Assembly (NCBI GenBank): GCA_010093815.1
Contig: ML996568.1
DNA from: Pseudovirgaria hyperparasitica
Lineage: Eukaryota
Direction: 5' to 3' (one strand)
DNA length: 64,000 nt
The notes below the pieces were generated by a model, which made no database searches, was not told where the DNA came from, and saw nothing but the letters and a program-made list of their open reading frames with translations. Below, one piece after another: positions 57,923 through 61,846 of this stretch (within the stretch, counting starts at the first letter, position 1; each line of letters opens with the position of its first letter). Position numbers and translations under genes: made by a program.

Positions 57923-57930
57923 GTTTTGAT

Positions 57931-58604
57931 CAGAATTCCTAACAATCAGTTTAGTTTAACTTTAGGCCTCTAGTTAAACTAGACTAAAGTACTTTAATCC
58001 TAGCTATTATAGAATCAGATTAAACTATTAATTCTAGTAGTAGAATTAAAGTTAAACTAGACTAGACTAAAGTATATTAATAAGACTAGCTAAAAGTCTT
58101 AAAGATAGATAAAATTCAGTATTCTAAGGCTATATATCTATATTATCTATATAGTAATTCTTAATATCAGGCATGTGATTTGCACGTGACCCTATGTGTG
58201 TACAGTAGTCTTTTATAGTTAACTCCCGTTATAATAATTCAAAGACGGCCACGAAAATCCTATCGTTATAGCGAGATTATCGTAATATCGGTTTTATATA
58301 AGCTAGTTACCTAGGCGTTCATTAGACCCACGTGAGTTCTTATTACTAATTATAAAGGGCTTTCCTCTAGACCCCACTAATACCTATTCTATATCTATTT
58401 GTAGATCCATGGTTGGTGCGTGGAGCCCGCCACCTTACACTATCTATATATAAATTTAGTTTAGCTTAACTATTAGTAACTTAATCCTACTCTAGAATTA
58501 AATTAGACTAAAGATCTAACCCTTAGTAAGAGGCGTTAGTTAAACTAGACTAAGTTAATTCTAGAGAGGTAGAATTGAAGTTGGACTAATTATTAGGAAC
58601 TCTG
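57931..58604. mobile_element. Internal MITE-like unit (left TIR to first right-end copy), RIP-mutated
   Basis: A second right-TIR copy, ACTAATTATTAGGAACTCTG, lies at 58585-58604. Subterminal motif GTTAAACTAGACTA is repeated (~57973, 58051, 58539). Very TpA-rich. Confidence 0.75.
58440..58604 (+). repeat. 165-bp direct repeat, copy 1 (element right end); copy 2 at 60529-60693
   Basis: Ungapped manual alignment at offset 2089 shows 7 mismatches, 6 of them C/T or G/A transitions. Confidence 0.92.
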
Positions 58605-59035
58605 TAGCTCACTAATCGCCATTGCCTCCAATGGAGATAATATATAGCACAAGGCCTTGGATGACGACGATGTTATTGCTGTTCATGAATCATGCTCTCG
58701 ACAGCGCAATCTTTGCGGCTGAGACGTAACAAGAGAGTATCTCGGCATGTCGTTCCACAAGTACTGCTTGACATTCAGAATTTGTCAGTAAAAGAATTGC
58801 GTGAAATTCTAGCTAATAGTATTCGGCTAATGACCTTTTAAAAAGCACCGTGCCCGGGTTTACGCGAACTACAGTAGAAGAACGGTTCTATGGGAGTTTC
58901 AGAGTATGTCACAGCAAGGTCACTGAAGTAGGCTATAAGTAACGTCATTTGGCATTTATTTTATCTTAATTCAAAGCCACCTTCTTCCAAACTTACAGCC
59001 GCAAACGATATACCGCTAAGCCATCTATACCACCA

Positions 59036-59671
59036 ATGCATCTTCTAAACATCCTCGTCATTACTATCATTGGTATCACTACCAATATAGTCGTCGCCGA
59101 GACCAAATGCAGACCGCCGAACTGGTTGGAACGGACGGCTAACAAAGGCTTGGATAACGTCTATAAACATACTGATGCTTCTTTTATTCATGGCGTCATT
59201 GACTCTCTCCAAGCGGTACCTCTGGACGAATATCAGGCTTGTCCAGATCAGATGATAGAGCACTTTAGGCCTGGCGAGGAGAAAAGATACACAATCCCAG
59301 ATGATATTCTACCACCCGAGCTGAAGGGGGGTTTCGTCGTATGCCGGGAAAACGGTACTCCCCTTAATTATCAAGATATACAAGCTATCGAAGAGCTACA
59401 AATGGAGGCCTGCGAAGGAAAGGATAATAAATGGGGGAAACACGTCGGAGGCCAGCGTAAAGATTACCCTCATGGCGACGGCGTGGCATTTCAATGTGAC
59501 TATACTCCTCGGTTCCACAGCCATACGGTACAAACATGCGACCCGAAATCGCTCGCAGAAATGTTACTGCTTGTCAACCGATATTGTATGGATTATCCCG
59601 GTTGGTTTTCTATGGAGGCGTGGGACGTCACATATGGTCGGCAACACAAAGAGGCTCTAAAGCGCTGCTAG
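59036..59671 (+). CDS. Small secreted cysteine-rich effector-like protein (211 aa), cargo of the hAT-type element
   Basis: Intact intronless ORF. Hydrophobic signal peptide MHLLNILVITIIGITTNIVVA, 8 Cys, dibasic EEKR site, and a TATA-like TATAAG at ~58934. Confidence 0.8.
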   Translation: MHLLNILVITIIGITTNIVVAETKCRPPNWLERTANKGLDNVYKHTDASFIHGVIDSLQAVPLDEYQACPDQMIEHFRPGEEKRYTIPDDILPPELKGGFVVCRENGTPLNYQDIQAIEELQMEACEGKDNKWGKHVGGQRKDYPHGDGVAFQCDYTPRFHSHTVQTCDPKSLAEMLLLVNRYCMDYPGWFSMEAWDVTYGRQHKEALKRC

Positions 59672-60681
59672 GAGGTATTCTCGCAGCTAGCCGAACAGAG
59701 AGATCGGAATAGCGCCTAAAAGGTGATAGGTCGGAATTTGAATAAGATGGGAGTACCGCGGACTGTATATGTCACACGGCGACACTTTTTCGAAAGTCAG
59801 AAGTCAAAAGTCAGAAGTCAGAAGTCAAGAGTCTCTTTCGCCGTTACCCGCACAGATCCCACTTGGTACACGTGATCTTAACTGATTTGAACTGATTTTA
59901 ACCTTGCAGGCTTAAAAACAGCACTTAATCAACGTGTTTCTAATTGATCTCAATTGATTTTTATTCAAAGAAGTGTATGGATGTATTTGAAGCATTGAAT
60001 TGTATGTATTGTAGAGCCTTAGCTTTTGAGATGTGGGCCCGTGATATAGAAAATCTAGCCCTATGACACATGTAGTCTACGGTAATAGAGTTATCGATAG
60101 AAGATAGTAGTAACTTATATGACTAGTAAAGCTATAGTAGATGCTAATAGACACTGGCGATAAACCGGGCTAAATGGACCATACAATATCTGATTGGTTG
60201 ATGACGGGTTTATGTAATTATCAAGGTGCATCGCGATCGAGATCGCGGCCTCTTATACACAATGTAGCCGAGAACATGAGAAACCACCACTAAAGCGACT
60301 CCAACCATGATTCCAAGCCACCACATCGATAATGAGGTATTGTAAGATAGAATGATAGATCAATAGCACTTTTACTAATCTTGAAGCTATTAATTGTCTT
60401 TTTAATATAATCTGGTTAGGAGTACCGGAGTTATATAATATATCACGTGGTATATTATATAATTTTAAATTATATAACTTACTTCTAATAGATCTCGTTA
60501 AATCATCTATTTTTAAGAGAATATCTACCTATCTATATATAACTTTAGTTTAACTTAACTATTAGTAACTTAATCCTACCCTAGAATTAAATTAGACTAA
60601 AGATCTAACCCTTAGTAAGAGGCGTTAGTTAAACTAGACTAAGTTAATTCTAGAGAGGCAGAATTGAAGTTGGACTGATTG

Positions 60682-61846
60682 TTAGGGACTCTGGTTTTGA
60701 TGTGAGGGAGCGGATGGGTTAGAGAACGATCGGGCTTCGGTCGGGGGGGTTTGCTGGATTGTGATGGTGGAGGCATATATGGTTGCGTTTTCGGTGTGGA
60801 TGGTGTGTTGGTCCGTTGCTGGGGAGTCGAGCTTGGGGGAGCGAGTTGCGAACCATCTCGTCTTGACTGCTGGCGCACTACCGAGTTTTGTTGCTGAATT
60901 CGCTGGCGAGCACGTGTTGGACGACGCTTCGAGGTCTCGAAAGTTTGGCGGAGAAGGAGACAAAACGGCGCAGCCCGTCAGCCCGTTCTTGGCAATCCGT
61001 TCTCGGAACTCGTTGAGGATGACGAATTCGAGCTGCAGTTTGAAGGCGTAAACAAACGAATGCATGACGGCCTTGAGTTGGAAGTAATCCAGATAGTCCA
61101 GCGTGATGACGAGAACATCGGCCAGGATCACAATGACCTGAATGAGGATAAGCACGGCCATGGTCTTCTTCATCTTCGGATTCAGCGAATCTTGCAGGAG
61201 TTTCATCGTAGCGTAGACATAAATCGCAGAGATGACTATCTCCTGGGTGGAAAAGCCCATGACCTGGACACGTTCCATGGGCTTCATGTACGGGAGAAAC
61301 TGGGTGTGCGTCGGCTTGTTCGATACCAGGAACTGAAAGACGATAGTTGGGATGTGGAACAAGCACGCGTCGATAATGATCATTGCCAGGACAATCTTCA
61401 GCGTCCTATGCCCCACACTGACAAGATGCAGCCGGGACCAGAGAACGACGCTGAAGCCAGAGACCATGCCCACCCAACCGATTTCCGCCAGAACCGTAGC
61501 GAGAATCCAGTTCGCCTTTGGTACGCAATACTTCAGTATGAAGCCGATCGCGTGCAGCGTCACGCCCCATGTCGTAAACAAGACGGAGTAGAAATACACG
61601 CCCTGATAGCGCTTAAATGTGTAAAACACCCAAACCGTCAGTTCGACAGTGGTCCATATGGGGAGCGCAGTGAAGACTGCCAGCAGAGCCCTACAGATGT
61701 AATAAGTACAGTTCAGCAATAATTGGGGCCTTCAAGACTACTCACCACACTGTCAGGTTCCATGGCAGCGGTCCGGTACGTTTGAACGACCAGTCAAACT
61801 CGTCCAAAGGGACCCACGGCACGGTGATATTGCGTACTCCAGACAT
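60682..61846 (-). CDS. Fungal 7-TM integral membrane protein, C-terminal tail truncated by the element
   Basis: ATG at 61846 (MSGVRNITVPW...GPLPWNLTVW). Intron 61745-61691. Seven hydrophobic segments with WSRLHL and KLQLEFVILN motifs. Now ends QN-QSP* using a TAA inside the TIR. Confidence 0.85.

What the first reader, a model, noticed from the sequence alone, without database searches (positions are those of the whole stretch)
57923..60701. Gene-carrying compound hAT element: a small non-autonomous vehicle for an effector-like gene
Seen: 20-bp TIRs starting CAGA, a perfect 8-bp TSD around the outer ends, no transposase and an intact secreted-protein gene inside. Established: 8-bp TSDs with short TIRs are typical of the hAT superfamily. 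Inference: the whole 2.76-kb unit, cargo included, moved in one cut-and-paste event using a transposase supplied in trans. That would make it a Pack-type/macrotransposon route for effector mobilisation in a fungus, far smaller than Starships.
Basis: partly seen in the sequence, partly recalled or inferred. Interest (0 to 1): 0.9.

Follow-up and report, generated by a model that had tools for sequence, protein, structure and literature searches.

The report
Small transposon carrying a secreted-protein gene
A 2.8-kb piece of mobile DNA with no transposase of its own, carrying a working gene for a small secreted killer-toxin-like protein, has jumped into and cut short a membrane-protein gene of a fungus that parasitises rust fungi, a tidy example of a gene being moved by a small transposon.

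Summary
A 2,763-bp insert (57931-60693) has 20-bp inverted ends (18/20) and a perfect 8-bp duplication, GTTTTGAT. Removing it in silico restores a 473-codon frame. The severed downstream piece still carries the C-terminal motif of the host DUF7703 family.

The insert has three parts: a complete 674-bp MITE-like unit (L-X-R'), 1,924 bp of single-copy DNA, and a second 165-bp right end (R, 96% identical to R'). Contig depth in two DNA runs suggests the ends are multi-copy and shows the cargo is single-copy. The ends have a RIP-like composition and the cargo does not. No transposase lies in the element or the window.

The cargo gene (211 aa, 8 Cys) is covered without mismatch by spliced-RNA-derived contigs. 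It belongs to a family of 8 in Pseudovirgaria hyperparasitica. Its model has a KP4/ECP2-like fold (Z 9.2-5.7; next unrelated 3.8).

Best reading (0.6): a hAT-like macrotransposon whose outer ends were used in a single cut-and-paste event by a transposase supplied in trans.

Not shown: an autonomous partner, TSDs of other copies, an empty site, or long-read continuity.

Gene-carrying hATs (ToxhAT, hAT-H3) and maize Ac macrotransposons are known, so this is a new variant rather than a new kind. A general "route" for moving effectors is unsupported.

The parts
57923..57930 (.). Left copy of the 8-bp target-site duplication, GTTTTGAT
   Evidence: Read directly. It fits nTnnnnAn, the pattern quoted for Hermes in PMC10368747.
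57931..57950 (+). Left terminal inverted repeat, CAGAATTCCTAACAATCAGT
   Evidence: pair I3, 18/20 to the outer right end; 3 matches in the window against 0.03 expected.
57931..58255 (+). Left end (L) with subterminal repeats. This is the part of the family that looks multi-copy.
   Evidence: Summed contig depth is 6,064-9,072 against about 250-330 for the flanks in run X1. The tool warns that summed depth is not a copy number. The motif TAGACTAA occurs at 57980 and 58063. The contigs break at 57977 and resume at 58087/58139.
57931..58604 (+). Inner complete MITE-like unit, L-X-R' (674 bp, no coding capacity, AT-rich, RIP-like composition)
   Evidence: TIRs of L and R' match 17/20. GC is 0.32, TpA/ApT 1.65, and the composite RIP index +1.21. 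No Pfam hit.
58440..58604 (+). R': an internal copy of the right end, complete to its last TIR base, abutting the cargo (next 8 nt are TAGCTCAC, not the TSD)
   Evidence: 96% identical to 60529-60693. Of 7 differences, 6 are transitions; at 5 of them R' has A/T where R has G/C.
58605..60528 (+). Cargo segment (1,924 bp): single-copy DNA holding the promoter, gene and 3' flank. Its composition is not RIP-like.
   Evidence: One 2,001-nt contig (58562-60562) with 0 mismatches, at depth 333 (X1) and 290 (X2), against flanks of 245-303 and 260-262. Composite RIP index -0.29 to +0.10.
59036..59671 (+). Cargo gene: a 211-aa protein with a hydrophobic N-terminus and 8 Cys; residues ~94-210 adopt a KP4/ECP2-like fold
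   Evidence: ORF. Paralogues of 57-24% identity with 8 or 6 Cys. AF2 model pLDDT 68, and 80-90 over residues 80-211. VIA-align: Y3 Z 9.2, PDLP5 8.3, Zt-KP4 7.8, Gnk2 7.4, KP4 5.7, next unrelated chain 3.8.
58920..59921 (+). Stretch covered by RNA-derived contigs (the cargo transcript; strand and ends cannot be shown by contigs)
   Evidence: X3 contigs cover 58920-59695 and 59676-59921; the X4 contig covers 58981-59763; all have 0 mismatches. X3/X4 are RNA: their contig skips from 61691 to about 61746, which matches the annotated intron.
60529..60693 (+). R: the outer right end (165 bp), with no matching left end nearby ('fractured' element)
   Evidence: Summed depth is 5,125-5,589 in X1. Composite RIP index +1.93. 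No further L-type TIR in the window.
60674..60693 (-). Right terminal inverted repeat, CAGAGTCCCTAACAATCAGT when read inward. It supplies the stop codon of the truncated host protein (TAA at 60682-60684, minus strand).
   Evidence: The ORF 60682-61467 ends ...HQNQSP, as does the public protein P0012.
60694..60701 (.). Right copy of the TSD, GTTTTGAT
60685..61846 (-). Upstream part of the interrupted host gene (DUF7703 membrane protein): exon 1 at 61745-61846, an intron, then exon 2 at 60685-61689
   Evidence: tblastn of P0012 gives 100% identity. Pfam PF24802, E 5.6e-37. P0012 is named as a Pseudovirgaria hyperparasitica protein.
57539..57930 (-). Severed 3' part of the host gene (129 codons plus stop, still open). 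It ends ...DMERRYLGAYGRAE, the conserved C-terminal motif of the family.
   Evidence: Frame restoration. Collinear BLASTP hits to the extreme C-termini of homologues. Alignment. 51 of 119 homologues carry [QR]Y[LI]G in their last 30 aa, 1 of 119 carries it elsewhere, and P0012 lacks it. RNA contigs cover 57361-57949.

Best explanation
This is a composite, non-autonomous, hAT-like DNA transposon, that is, a macrotransposon. Its order is: a complete ~674-bp MITE-like element (L-X-R'), then 1.9 kb of ordinary single-copy DNA carrying a complete expressed gene, then a solo 165-bp right end (R) in the same orientation.

Proposed steps:
1. At some earlier locus the gene sat between these two members of a multi-copy family. 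(Inferred.)
2. A transposase made elsewhere in the genome paired the outermost L and R ends, skipped R', and cut and pasted the 2,763 bp as one unit into the last exon of a DUF7703 membrane-protein gene at GTTTTGAT, creating the 8-bp duplication. (The single-unit insertion is shown by the TSD, the restored frame and the conserved C-terminal motif. The in-trans enzyme and its hAT identity are inferred.)

Consequences:
- The host protein is cut short by 129 residues, loses its conserved C-terminal motif, and ends at a stop codon inside the right TIR. (Shown.)
- The cargo gene, antisense to the host gene, is transcribed with its own upstream DNA. (Coverage by RNA-derived contigs is shown; the promoter is inferred.)
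- The cargo encodes a secreted 8-Cys protein with a KP4/ECP2-like fold. In a mycoparasite of rusts it is most likely an antifungal or interaction protein. (The fold comes from a medium-confidence model; the activity is inferred from Zt-KP4-1 and UmV-KP4, PMC12382754.)
For: 1. Boundaries. A perfect 8-bp TSD flanks only the outer ends; R' is followed by TAGCTCAC. The TIRs match 18/20. The TIR pattern hits 3 sites against 0.03 expected.

2. A genuine insertion into a once-continuous gene. Excision in silico gives a 473-codon frame. The downstream piece carries the family's C-terminal motif: 51/119 homologues have it in their last 30 aa, 1/119 elsewhere, and the truncated public protein lacks it.

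3. Both host/TE junctions recur in contigs from independent runs. DNA runs X1/X2 cover 57217-57977 and 60652-61700. RNA runs X3/X4, from a second sample and study, cover 57361-57949 and 60652-61691.

4. Family behaviour. Summed contig depth at L and R is about 10-30 times that of the flanks, and the contigs break inside the ends. 145 contigs of X1 and 69 of X2 were laid at 80-100% likeness. The ends have RIP-like composition (composite RIP index +1.2 and +1.9), whereas the cargo is near 0 and the flanks are negative. Differences from the other copies are mostly A>G and T>C relative to the window (24 of 37 places in X1).

5. hAT traits. The TSD is 8 bp and fits nTnnnnAn. The ends are dissimilar and carry short subterminal repeats, as described for Hermes. 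All six TAGACTAA sites in the 64-kb window lie in L, R' and R. A Dothideomycete hAT with 20-bp TIRs and an 8-bp TSD that carries a host gene is documented.

6. Non-autonomous. No transposase domain was found in the element or in 25 long frames of the window.

7. The cargo is single-copy (one 2,001-nt contig at flank-like depth; only weak paralogue fragments elsewhere). This fits cut-and-paste relocation better than copy-and-paste.

8. Mechanistic precedent. Maize structures that end in Ac 5' and 3' termini transpose and excise as macrotransposons with 8-bp TSDs (passages of PMC9910405).
Against:
- TSDs of other family copies were not seen, so the family's mobility and TSD length rest on this one insertion.
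- No empty site or polymorphism was found. All four runs that hold the locus carry the insertion, and no joint from 57930 to 60702 was reported.
- No single contig spans the collapsed repeat stretches (57977-58087, 58521-58562, 60562-60652). The species' public genome is Illumina/AllPathsLG only (supplementary table 5 of PMC7082219). So the linkage of the cargo to this site is not proven by long molecules.
- The tool states that summed contig depth is not a copy number.
- The donor locus and its footprint are unknown.
- The rule that hAT TIRs begin CAG/TAG is recalled, not taken from a call.
- The same final structure could arise if the cargo entered a resident MITE later (see rival explanations).
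Confidence: 0.6

Rival explanations
1. MITE first, cargo later. A simple L-X-R element inserted into the DUF7703 gene and made the TSD. Later, the block 'R plus cargo' entered it by homologous recombination within R, for example by integration of a circle carrying one R copy and the gene, or by ectopic exchange with a locus where the gene lay next to an R end. This would leave R'-cargo-R.
For: The cargo is flanked by a direct repeat of R (165 bp, 96% identical), which is the product expected from a single crossover of a circle. The TSD and frame restoration fit this scenario equally well. R is multi-copy by depth, so recombination partners exist.
Against: It needs a donor in which the gene was already next to R, plus loss of that donor, because the cargo is single-copy. 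R' is complete to its last TIR base and abuts unrelated DNA, as expected of an element end that was once inserted beside the gene. Transposition of composite Ac-ended structures is documented. I know of no documented case of the circle route for such elements, but I ran no search for one.
Confidence: 0.13
2. Single element with internal capture (Pack-type). One non-autonomous element acquired the 1.9 kb internally during gap repair or template switching after excision, and R' is a by-product of that aberrant repair rather than the end of a separate element.
For: The element has TIRs, a TSD, no transposase and a host-type gene inside. Transduplication of a host gene into a hAT is known in Dothideomycetes.
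Against: No parental copy exists at 80% likeness or more in either DNA run; the nearest paralogue is 57% identical in protein. The cargo is a complete gene with its flanks, not a fragment. R' is a full-length, precisely ended right end rather than a scrambled internal piece.
Confidence: 0.1
3. Same kind of composite element, but not hAT. The family is mobilised by a transposase of another superfamily that can also give 8-bp duplications.
For: No transposase was identified. Classification rests on the TSD length and pattern and on TIR features of a single insertion.
Against: The TSD is exactly 8 bp and fits nTnnnnAn. The TIRs are 20 bp and begin CAG. The ends are asymmetric with short repeated subterminal motifs. 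A Dothideomycete hAT with 20-bp TIRs and an 8-bp TSD is documented.
Confidence: 0.08
4. Assembly artefact. The short-read assembly threaded the single-copy cargo contig through collapsed family repeats into this site. The real insert would be a plain ~0.67-kb element, with the gene lying between two family ends elsewhere.
For: No listed contig spans 57977-58087, 58521-58562 or 60562-60652. The public genome of the species was built from 270-bp fragments and a 5.8-kb mate-pair library with AllPathsLG, with no long reads.
Against: The collapsed stretches are 41-110 nt, shorter than the 2x150 reads from 270-bp fragments, and the 5.8-kb mate pairs span the whole element. Each contig end carries copy-specific variants consistent with the assembled order. 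Even under this rival, the cargo would still be flanked by two family right ends in direct orientation.
Confidence: 0.07

Closest known systems
Ac/Ds macrotransposons and composite insertions of maize (hAT superfamily)
   Same: A stretch of ordinary DNA is bounded by a 5' end and a 3' end that belong to separate elements (one may be a 'fractured' end). It moves as one unit and is flanked by an 8-bp TSD (passages of PMC9910405). Here the order is L-X-R', cargo, then solo R, and the TSD flanks only the outer ends.
   Different: The maize cases were shown genetically, by excision and reinsertion, and depend on Ac. Here the event is inferred from one insertion, the elements are small MITE-like units, the transposase is unidentified, the host is a fungus, and the cargo is a complete expressed gene.
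ToxhAT, the 14-kb TIR-bounded element carrying the ToxA effector gene in Pleosporales
   Same: A class II, hAT-associated, TIR-bounded unit carrying a secreted effector-type gene in Dothideomycetes (abstract and passages of PMC6737239).
   Different: ToxhAT is 14.3 kb with 74-bp TIRs. It holds several genes, including a hAT-like transposase gene, sits in a TE-rich island, and no TSDs were found in any isolate. The present unit is 2.76 kb with 20-bp TIRs. It has a perfect TSD, no transposase and a single gene, and it lies in a gene-dense region with GC near 0.5.
hAT transposons that transduplicated histone H3 in Pseudocercospora fijiensis and other Dothideomycetes
   Same: A hAT with 20-bp TIRs and an 8-bp TSD carrying a host gene, with a RIP signature on the copies (abstract and section 6 of PMC6710886).
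   Different: Those elements are ~9.5-kb elements carrying a hAT transposase domain, amplified to hundreds of copies, with a retained parent gene and RIP-inactivated cargo. Here the element is non-autonomous, the cargo is single-copy, intact, expressed and not RIP-like, and there is no parent copy.
Pack-TYPE / Pack-MULE elements of plants
   Same: Non-autonomous TIR elements with TSDs and host-derived sequence between the ends. (What Pack-TYPE elements are is recalled; I saw only the reference entry for Gisby & Catoni 2022.)
   Different: As I recall them, Pack elements typically carry gene fragments copied from a surviving parent gene. Here the cargo is a whole gene with its flanks, no parent copy exists, and an extra internal element end (R') points to two elements rather than internal capture.
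KP4 / ECP2 (HCE2) structural family of fungal secreted proteins (for the cargo protein)
   Same: A small secreted Cys-rich protein whose model aligns to Zt-KP4 (Z 7.8, 101 residues, rmsd 3.2), UmV KP4 (Z 5.7), and the related Y3 and Gnk2/DUF26 folds (Z 9.2-7.4). The Atlas feature search points to clusters partly labelled Hce2 (14% and 40% of members, score 0.90). One distant paralogue is named 'Ecp2 effector protein domain-containing' by UniRef. Zt-KP4-1 and UmV-KP4 inhibit fungal growth (PMC12382754, abstract and passages).
   Different: No member hits Pfam HCE2 or KP4 at E up to 1. There is an extra ~70-residue N-terminal region of low model confidence. The family is almost confined to one species: 8 members there and 1 in a Xylariomycetidae species. 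Activity is untested.

Membership tests
hAT superfamily (non-autonomous member) | 8-bp target-site duplication | tested here: met
   GTTTTGAT is present on both sides and is perfect. 8 bp is described as characteristic of hAT in PMC6710886.
hAT superfamily (non-autonomous member) | Target preference nTnnnnAn (a tendency of Hermes-type elements, not a strict criterion) | tested here: met
   In GTTTTGAT, position 2 is T and position 7 is A. The pattern is quoted from PMC10368747. One site only.
hAT superfamily (non-autonomous member) | Short imperfect TIRs (10-25 bp) beginning CAG/TAG | tested here: met
   The TIRs are 20 bp, match 18/20, and both begin CAGA. The CAG/TAG consensus is recalled; my search for it in print found nothing useful.
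hAT superfamily (non-autonomous member) | Dissimilar left and right ends with short subterminal repeats (transposase BED-domain sites) | tested here: met
   L and R align only weakly beyond the TIR. TAGACTAA occurs twice in each of L, R' and R and nowhere else in the 64 kb.
hAT superfamily (non-autonomous member) | A cognate autonomous element encoding a BED/DDE/hAT-dimerisation transposase with the same termini | not testable with these tools
   No genome is held. None was found in the window or the element.
hAT superfamily (non-autonomous member) | Other family copies, each with its own 8-bp TSD | tested here: inconclusive
   The ends look multi-copy by summed contig depth, and many variant contigs exist, but no flanks of other copies were returned. 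There are no other copies in the window. Metagenome scans gave 0 matches and then 5 matches confined to 20-25 nt.
Macrotransposon (two-element composite) | Outer 5' and 3' ends from separate elements in direct orientation, with an unused internal end | tested here: met
   The order is L ... R' | cargo | R. R' is complete to its last base and 96% identical to R.
Macrotransposon (two-element composite) | TSD flanks the composite, not the inner element | tested here: met
   R' is followed by TAGCTCAC; GTTTTGAT flanks only L and R.
Macrotransposon (two-element composite) | Donor site with excision footprint, or observed mobility | not testable with these tools
   No genome and no other isolates are available. 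All four runs carry the insertion.
Pack-TYPE element | Captured sequence is a copy of a parent gene that persists elsewhere | tested here: not met
   The cargo contig is at single-copy depth, and no second copy at 80% likeness or more was laid in X1 or X2. The best paralogue is 57% identical in protein.
MITE (inner 674-bp unit) | Small, non-coding, with TIRs, multi-copy | tested here: met
   The unit is 674 bp with TIRs matching 17/20. It has no Pfam hit. Its ends have high summed depth. At this site it has no TSD of its own, as expected if it travelled inside the composite.
KP4/ECP2 structural family (cargo protein) | KP4-type alpha/beta sandwich fold | tested here: met
   The top seven VIA-align rows all belong to the related Y3, DUF26/Gnk2, KP4 and lectin folds (Z 9.2-5.7); the next row is at 3.8. 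Foldseek E-values are weak (0.04-0.65). Model pLDDT is 68 overall and 80-90 in the domain.
KP4/ECP2 structural family (cargo protein) | Match to Pfam HCE2 (PF14856) or KP4 (PF09044) | tested here: not met
   There were 0 family hits for the cargo at E up to 0.1, and none to HCE2 or KP4 for the 9 family members scanned at E up to 1. PMC12382754 reports KP4-fold groups without either domain.
KP4/ECP2 structural family (cargo protein) | Secreted, cysteine-rich | tested here: inconclusive
   The cargo and 5 paralogues have 8 Cys each, and 3 distant members have 6. The N-terminus is hydrophobic (Kyte-Doolittle maximum 2.28 at residue 3). One paralogue is named 'Secreted protein' by UniRef. No signal-peptide predictor was available.
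Starship (giant cargo-carrying element) | Tens of kb in size, with a tyrosine-recombinase 'captain' | tested here: not met
   The element is 2.76 kb. No such domain was found among 25 long frames of the window. The definition is recalled.

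The most novel reading that the evidence does not exclude
Pairs of these small hAT-like elements may act repeatedly as vehicles that relocate members of a species-specific family of KP4-like antifungal protein genes around the genome of a rust mycoparasite. That would explain why the 8 paralogues lie on at least 5 scaffolds. It would also make this the first fungal case in which an effector-type gene is shown, by a clean TSD and a restored target gene, to have been moved by a sub-3-kb non-autonomous macrotransposon.
Probability: 0.15. 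Interest if true: 0.75.

Novelty: new variant of a known kind. Interest (0 to 1): 0.5.

Why it matters
How effector-type genes change place and copy number in fungal genomes is usually inferred from their closeness to transposons. Direct signatures of transposition are rare. Even for ToxhAT, no target-site duplication was found.

Here one small element gives the full signature: TIRs, a perfect TSD, a restored host frame and a conserved host C-terminus on the far side. It carries a complete, transcribed KP4-like gene.

If the family is still mobile, it offers a compact and testable system for transposon-mediated gene relocation in fungi. It would also be a candidate antifungal protein family in a biocontrol-relevant mycoparasite.

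The insertion also corrects a public gene model: the annotated 369-aa DUF7703 protein is a transposon-truncated product.

Tried and rejected
- Whole-genome search for other copies, empty sites and an autonomous partner: not possible, because no genome is held.
- Earlier findings of this scan: four look-ups, all empty.
- Metagenome scans. The right-end pattern gave 0 matches. The degenerate TIR pattern gave 5 loci, but similarity to the element stops at 20-25 nt, so these are chance matches.
- RNA holders. No listed holder is on record as RNA. I inferred that X3/X4 are RNA from the spliced intron.
- Parts of the element without RNA contig cover in X3/X4 (58570-58883 and 59983-60610) are not evidence of silence.
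- No empty-site joint (57930 to 60702) was listed in any of the four runs. Contigs drop rare variants, so this does not show that the insertion is fixed.
- The first structure model, from a 3-sequence alignment, was too poor to use (pLDDT 40.9).
- Foldseek against the PDB gave no match at E <= 0.001. The fold call rests on VIA-align.
- A profile search of the word-indexed protein collection with the 9-member alignment found no new relatives and no Pfam-labelled ones.
- A search for a printed hAT TIR consensus ('YARNG') returned irrelevant papers.
- Styx of Zymoseptoria was considered as a comparator and set aside. It is a 7.9-kb IS3EU-type element with 6-bp TSDs.
- The ToxB unit was also set aside. 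Its authors attribute it to a Helitron-like element.

Full report
**Observation**

- GTTTTGAT occurs at 57923-57930 and again at 60694-60701.
- Just inside these lie CAGAATTCCTAACAATCAGT (57931-57950) and, on the other strand, CAGAGTCCCTAACAATCAGT (60674-60693). They match at 18 of 20 positions.
- A degenerate version of this TIR, allowing up to 3 mismatches, hits exactly three places in the 64-kb window. Shuffles give 0.03 expected, and 0 of 100 shuffles reach three.
- The third hit is the end of an internal second copy of the right end. 58440-58604 (R') is 96% identical to 60529-60693 (R).

The insert therefore reads: L-X-R', a complete 674-bp MITE-like unit; then 1,924 bp of other DNA; then R.

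R' runs to its very last TIR base and is followed by TAGCTCAC, not by the TSD. Only the outer ends are flanked by the duplication.

**It is a real insertion into a gene**

- Deleting 57931-60701 in silico gives one open frame of 473 codons on the minus strand across the joint. The other two frames are open for only 9 and 170 codons there.
- The upstream part is a DUF7703 membrane protein (PF24802, E 5.6e-37). It is 100% identical to a protein that its source names as from Pseudovirgaria hyperparasitica (P0012).
- That public 369-aa model ends ...HQNQSP. It reads three codons into the right TIR and stops at a TAA supplied by the transposon.
- The 129 codons on the far side of the insert are still open and end ...DMERRYLGAYGRAE.
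- BLASTP places this tail collinearly on the extreme C-termini of the homologues (alignment).
- Of the 119 homologues returned besides P0012, 51 carry [QR]Y[LI]G within their last 30 residues and only 1 carries it elsewhere. P0012 lacks it.

The insert therefore split a once-continuous gene and removed its conserved C-terminus.

**Evidence from public reads (one call, four coded runs, contigs only)**

*DNA runs X1 and X2 (one sample).*
- They cover both host/transposon junctions without mismatch (57217-57977 and 60652-61700).
- They hold the cargo as a single 2,001-nt contig (58562-60562, 0 mismatches) at depth 333 and 290. The flanks are at 245-303 and 260-262.
- Over L (57942-58255) and R (60454-60767) the summed depth is 5,100-9,100 in X1. 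It is 3,376 in the bin covering most of R' (58413-58569). The contigs break inside the ends.
- 145 (X1) and 69 (X2) contigs were laid at 80-100% likeness.
- The tool warns that summed depth is not a copy number. I read it only as showing that the ends belong to a multi-copy family while the cargo is single-copy.

*Differences from the other copies.* They are mainly A>G and T>C relative to the window (24 of 37 places in X1).

*Composition.*

| Region | TpA/ApT | Composite RIP index |
|---|---|---|
| L-X-R' | 1.65 | +1.21 |
| R | 2.25 | +1.93 |
| Cargo | 0.81-1.02 | -0.29 to +0.10 |
| Flanks | 0.50-0.87 | negative |

So the repeated ends look RIP-mutated and the single-copy cargo does not.

*Runs X3 and X4 (second sample and study).* They are RNA-derived. 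Their contig jumps from 61691 to the sequence at about 61746, which is the annotated 55-nt intron.
- They cover the cargo gene without mismatch (58920-59695, 59676-59921, 58981-59763).
- They run from both host exons 16-42 nt into the element ends.
- No contig joins the two host parts.

**No transposase**

- The only long frame in the element is the cargo gene.
- Of 36 frames of at least 35 aa overlapping the element, I sent 18 to Pfam. None hit a transposase family at E up to 1.
- Twenty-five long frames of the window gave ordinary genes and no transposase: Alg9-type transferase, JmjC, a C-5 DNA methyltransferase, EMP70, cutinase, CstF, AAA and ankyrin.
- The region is gene-dense with GC near 0.5. 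The element is an AT-rich island within it.

**The cargo**

- The ORF 59036-59671 encodes 211 aa with a hydrophobic N-terminus and 8 cysteines. It has no Pfam hit.
- A word-indexed search found only two paralogues, at 57% and 44% identity, both from P. hyperparasitica.
- An exhaustive profile search of 1.84 billion representatives returned ten proteins at E <= 0.001. P0002 is absent from that list. Six of the ten are family members that neither the window nor one search had supplied: five from the same species and one from a Xylariomycetidae species. Two of the ten (Sushi-repeat and a 2,074-aa protein) look spurious.
- The eight members in the species sit on five different scaffold lengths. 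Two have consecutive accession numbers.
- The 9-sequence alignment gave a usable model: pLDDT 68 overall and 80-90 over residues 80-211.
- VIA-align against 48,161 chains put seven related folds on top:

| Chain | Z |
|---|---|
| Coprinus Y3 (rmsd 2.6 over 99 residues) | 9.2 |
| DUF26 ectodomains PDLP5 / PDLP8 | 8.3 / 8.2 |
| Zymoseptoria Zt-KP4 | 7.8 |
| Gnk2 | 7.4 |
| A fungal lectin | 6.1 |
| Ustilago virus KP4 | 5.7 |
| Next, unrelated chain | 3.8 |

(All.)

- Foldseek ranks the same chains first, but at weak E-values (0.04-0.65).
- The Atlas feature search points to Ascomycota clusters that are partly labelled Hce2 (14% and 40% of members, score 0.90).
- PMC12382754 (abstract and passages) reports three relevant things. 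ECP2/HCE2 proteins form one group of the KP4 structural family. Other KP4-fold groups carry neither Pfam domain. Zt-KP4-1 and UmV-KP4 inhibit fungal growth.

For a parasite of rust fungi (PMC3317363, abstract seen in the listing; PMC7082219, passages), an antifungal or interaction role is the natural inference. It is untested.

**Mechanism**

The anatomy matches a macrotransposon: a 5' end and a 3' end from separate, directly oriented elements, with one internal end left unused. The whole unit is flanked by one 8-bp TSD.

In maize, structures that end in Ac 5' and 3' termini transpose and excise as units and leave 8-bp TSD footprints. Ac/fractured-Ac pairs are the classic substrates (PMC9910405, passages).

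The hAT assignment rests on:
- the 8-bp TSD;
- its fit to nTnnnnAn;
- the 20-bp CAG-initiated TIRs;
- the dissimilar ends with repeated short motifs. All six TAGACTAA sites of the window lie in L, R' and R, as described for Hermes, whose BED domains bind subterminal repeats.

A Dothideomycete hAT with 20-bp TIRs and an 8-bp TSD is on record.

Single-copy cargo with no parent copy fits cut-and-paste relocation better than copy-and-paste capture.

**What is not shown**

I could not examine other family copies and their TSDs, an autonomous partner, a donor site or an empty allele, because no genome is held. The metagenome scans gave only chance matches.

No contig spans the collapsed repeat stretches of 41-110 nt. 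The species' public genome is a short-read AllPathsLG assembly. Long-molecule proof of continuity is therefore missing, although fragments and mate pairs of the stated sizes should bridge such short repeats.

A later entry of 'R plus cargo' into a resident MITE by recombination would give the same final sequence.

**Comparison and novelty**

Gene-carrying hAT elements are known in Dothideomycetes.
- ToxhAT is 14 kb with 74-bp TIRs, several genes and no TSD found.
- The hAT-H3 transduplications are ~9.5-kb elements carrying a hAT transposase domain, amplified, with RIP-inactivated cargo.

Macrotransposition is known from maize.

What differs here is the combination:
- a sub-3-kb, non-autonomous composite built from MITE-like units;
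- a complete, expressed, un-RIPped, single-copy KP4-like gene;
- a full transposition signature, including a restored target gene.

I rate it a new variant of a known kind and of moderate interest. The claim of a general route for moving effectors is not supported by this single event.

Noticed in passing
window 28801-47961 (-): A stop-free frame of 6,386 codons. Neither of the two pieces scanned (3,987 and 2,399 aa) gave any Pfam family at E <= 0.001. This looks like a giant protein of unknown type in an otherwise ordinary gene neighbourhood.
   Followed up: no
window 13540-16950 (+): A frame of 1,136 aa with C-5 cytosine DNA methylase, BAH and DUF7893 domains. A DNA methyltransferase-type gene sits 40 kb from an element whose repeated ends show RIP-like composition.
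   Followed up: no
window 59867-59912 (bin 59826-59982): A short stretch in the cargo gene's 3' region has summed DNA contig depth about 7 times single-copy (2,475 against ~330 in X1). It is matched by 50-nt contigs with 6 mismatches in both RNA runs. It could be a sequence shared by the paralogues' 3' regions or a fragment of another small repeat. Two similar ~35-nt units lie side by side here (read).
   Followed up: partly
window 58330-58400: Part of the MITE-like unit's interior matches, at about 83%, a 1,657-nt RNA contig and a single-copy DNA contig. That DNA contig also joins the element's left terminus (57932) in the opposite orientation (tables 5 and 8). This suggests a rearranged relative of the element inside a transcribed locus elsewhere.
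   Followed up: no
window 60682-61846 (-): The public protein model of the host gene (P0012, 369 aa) is a transposon-truncated product. Its last three codons and its stop codon come from the right TIR.
   Followed up: yes
window 59794-59826: A tandem 7-nt repeat, (AAGTCAG)-like, in about 5 copies, just downstream of the cargo ORF (family D9; read).
   Followed up: no
window 60431-60462: A 32-nt AT-rich palindrome centred on CACGTG in the cargo's 3' flank (pair I11). CACGTG also occurs at about 58185, 58331 and 59860 (read).
   Followed up: no
proteins P0003 and P0004 (not in the window): Two paralogues of the cargo have consecutive accession numbers and the same scaffold length, so they are probably tandem neighbours. 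Another paralogue, P0005, is on a scaffold of the same length as the window's own proteins but does not lie in the window.
   Followed up: partly
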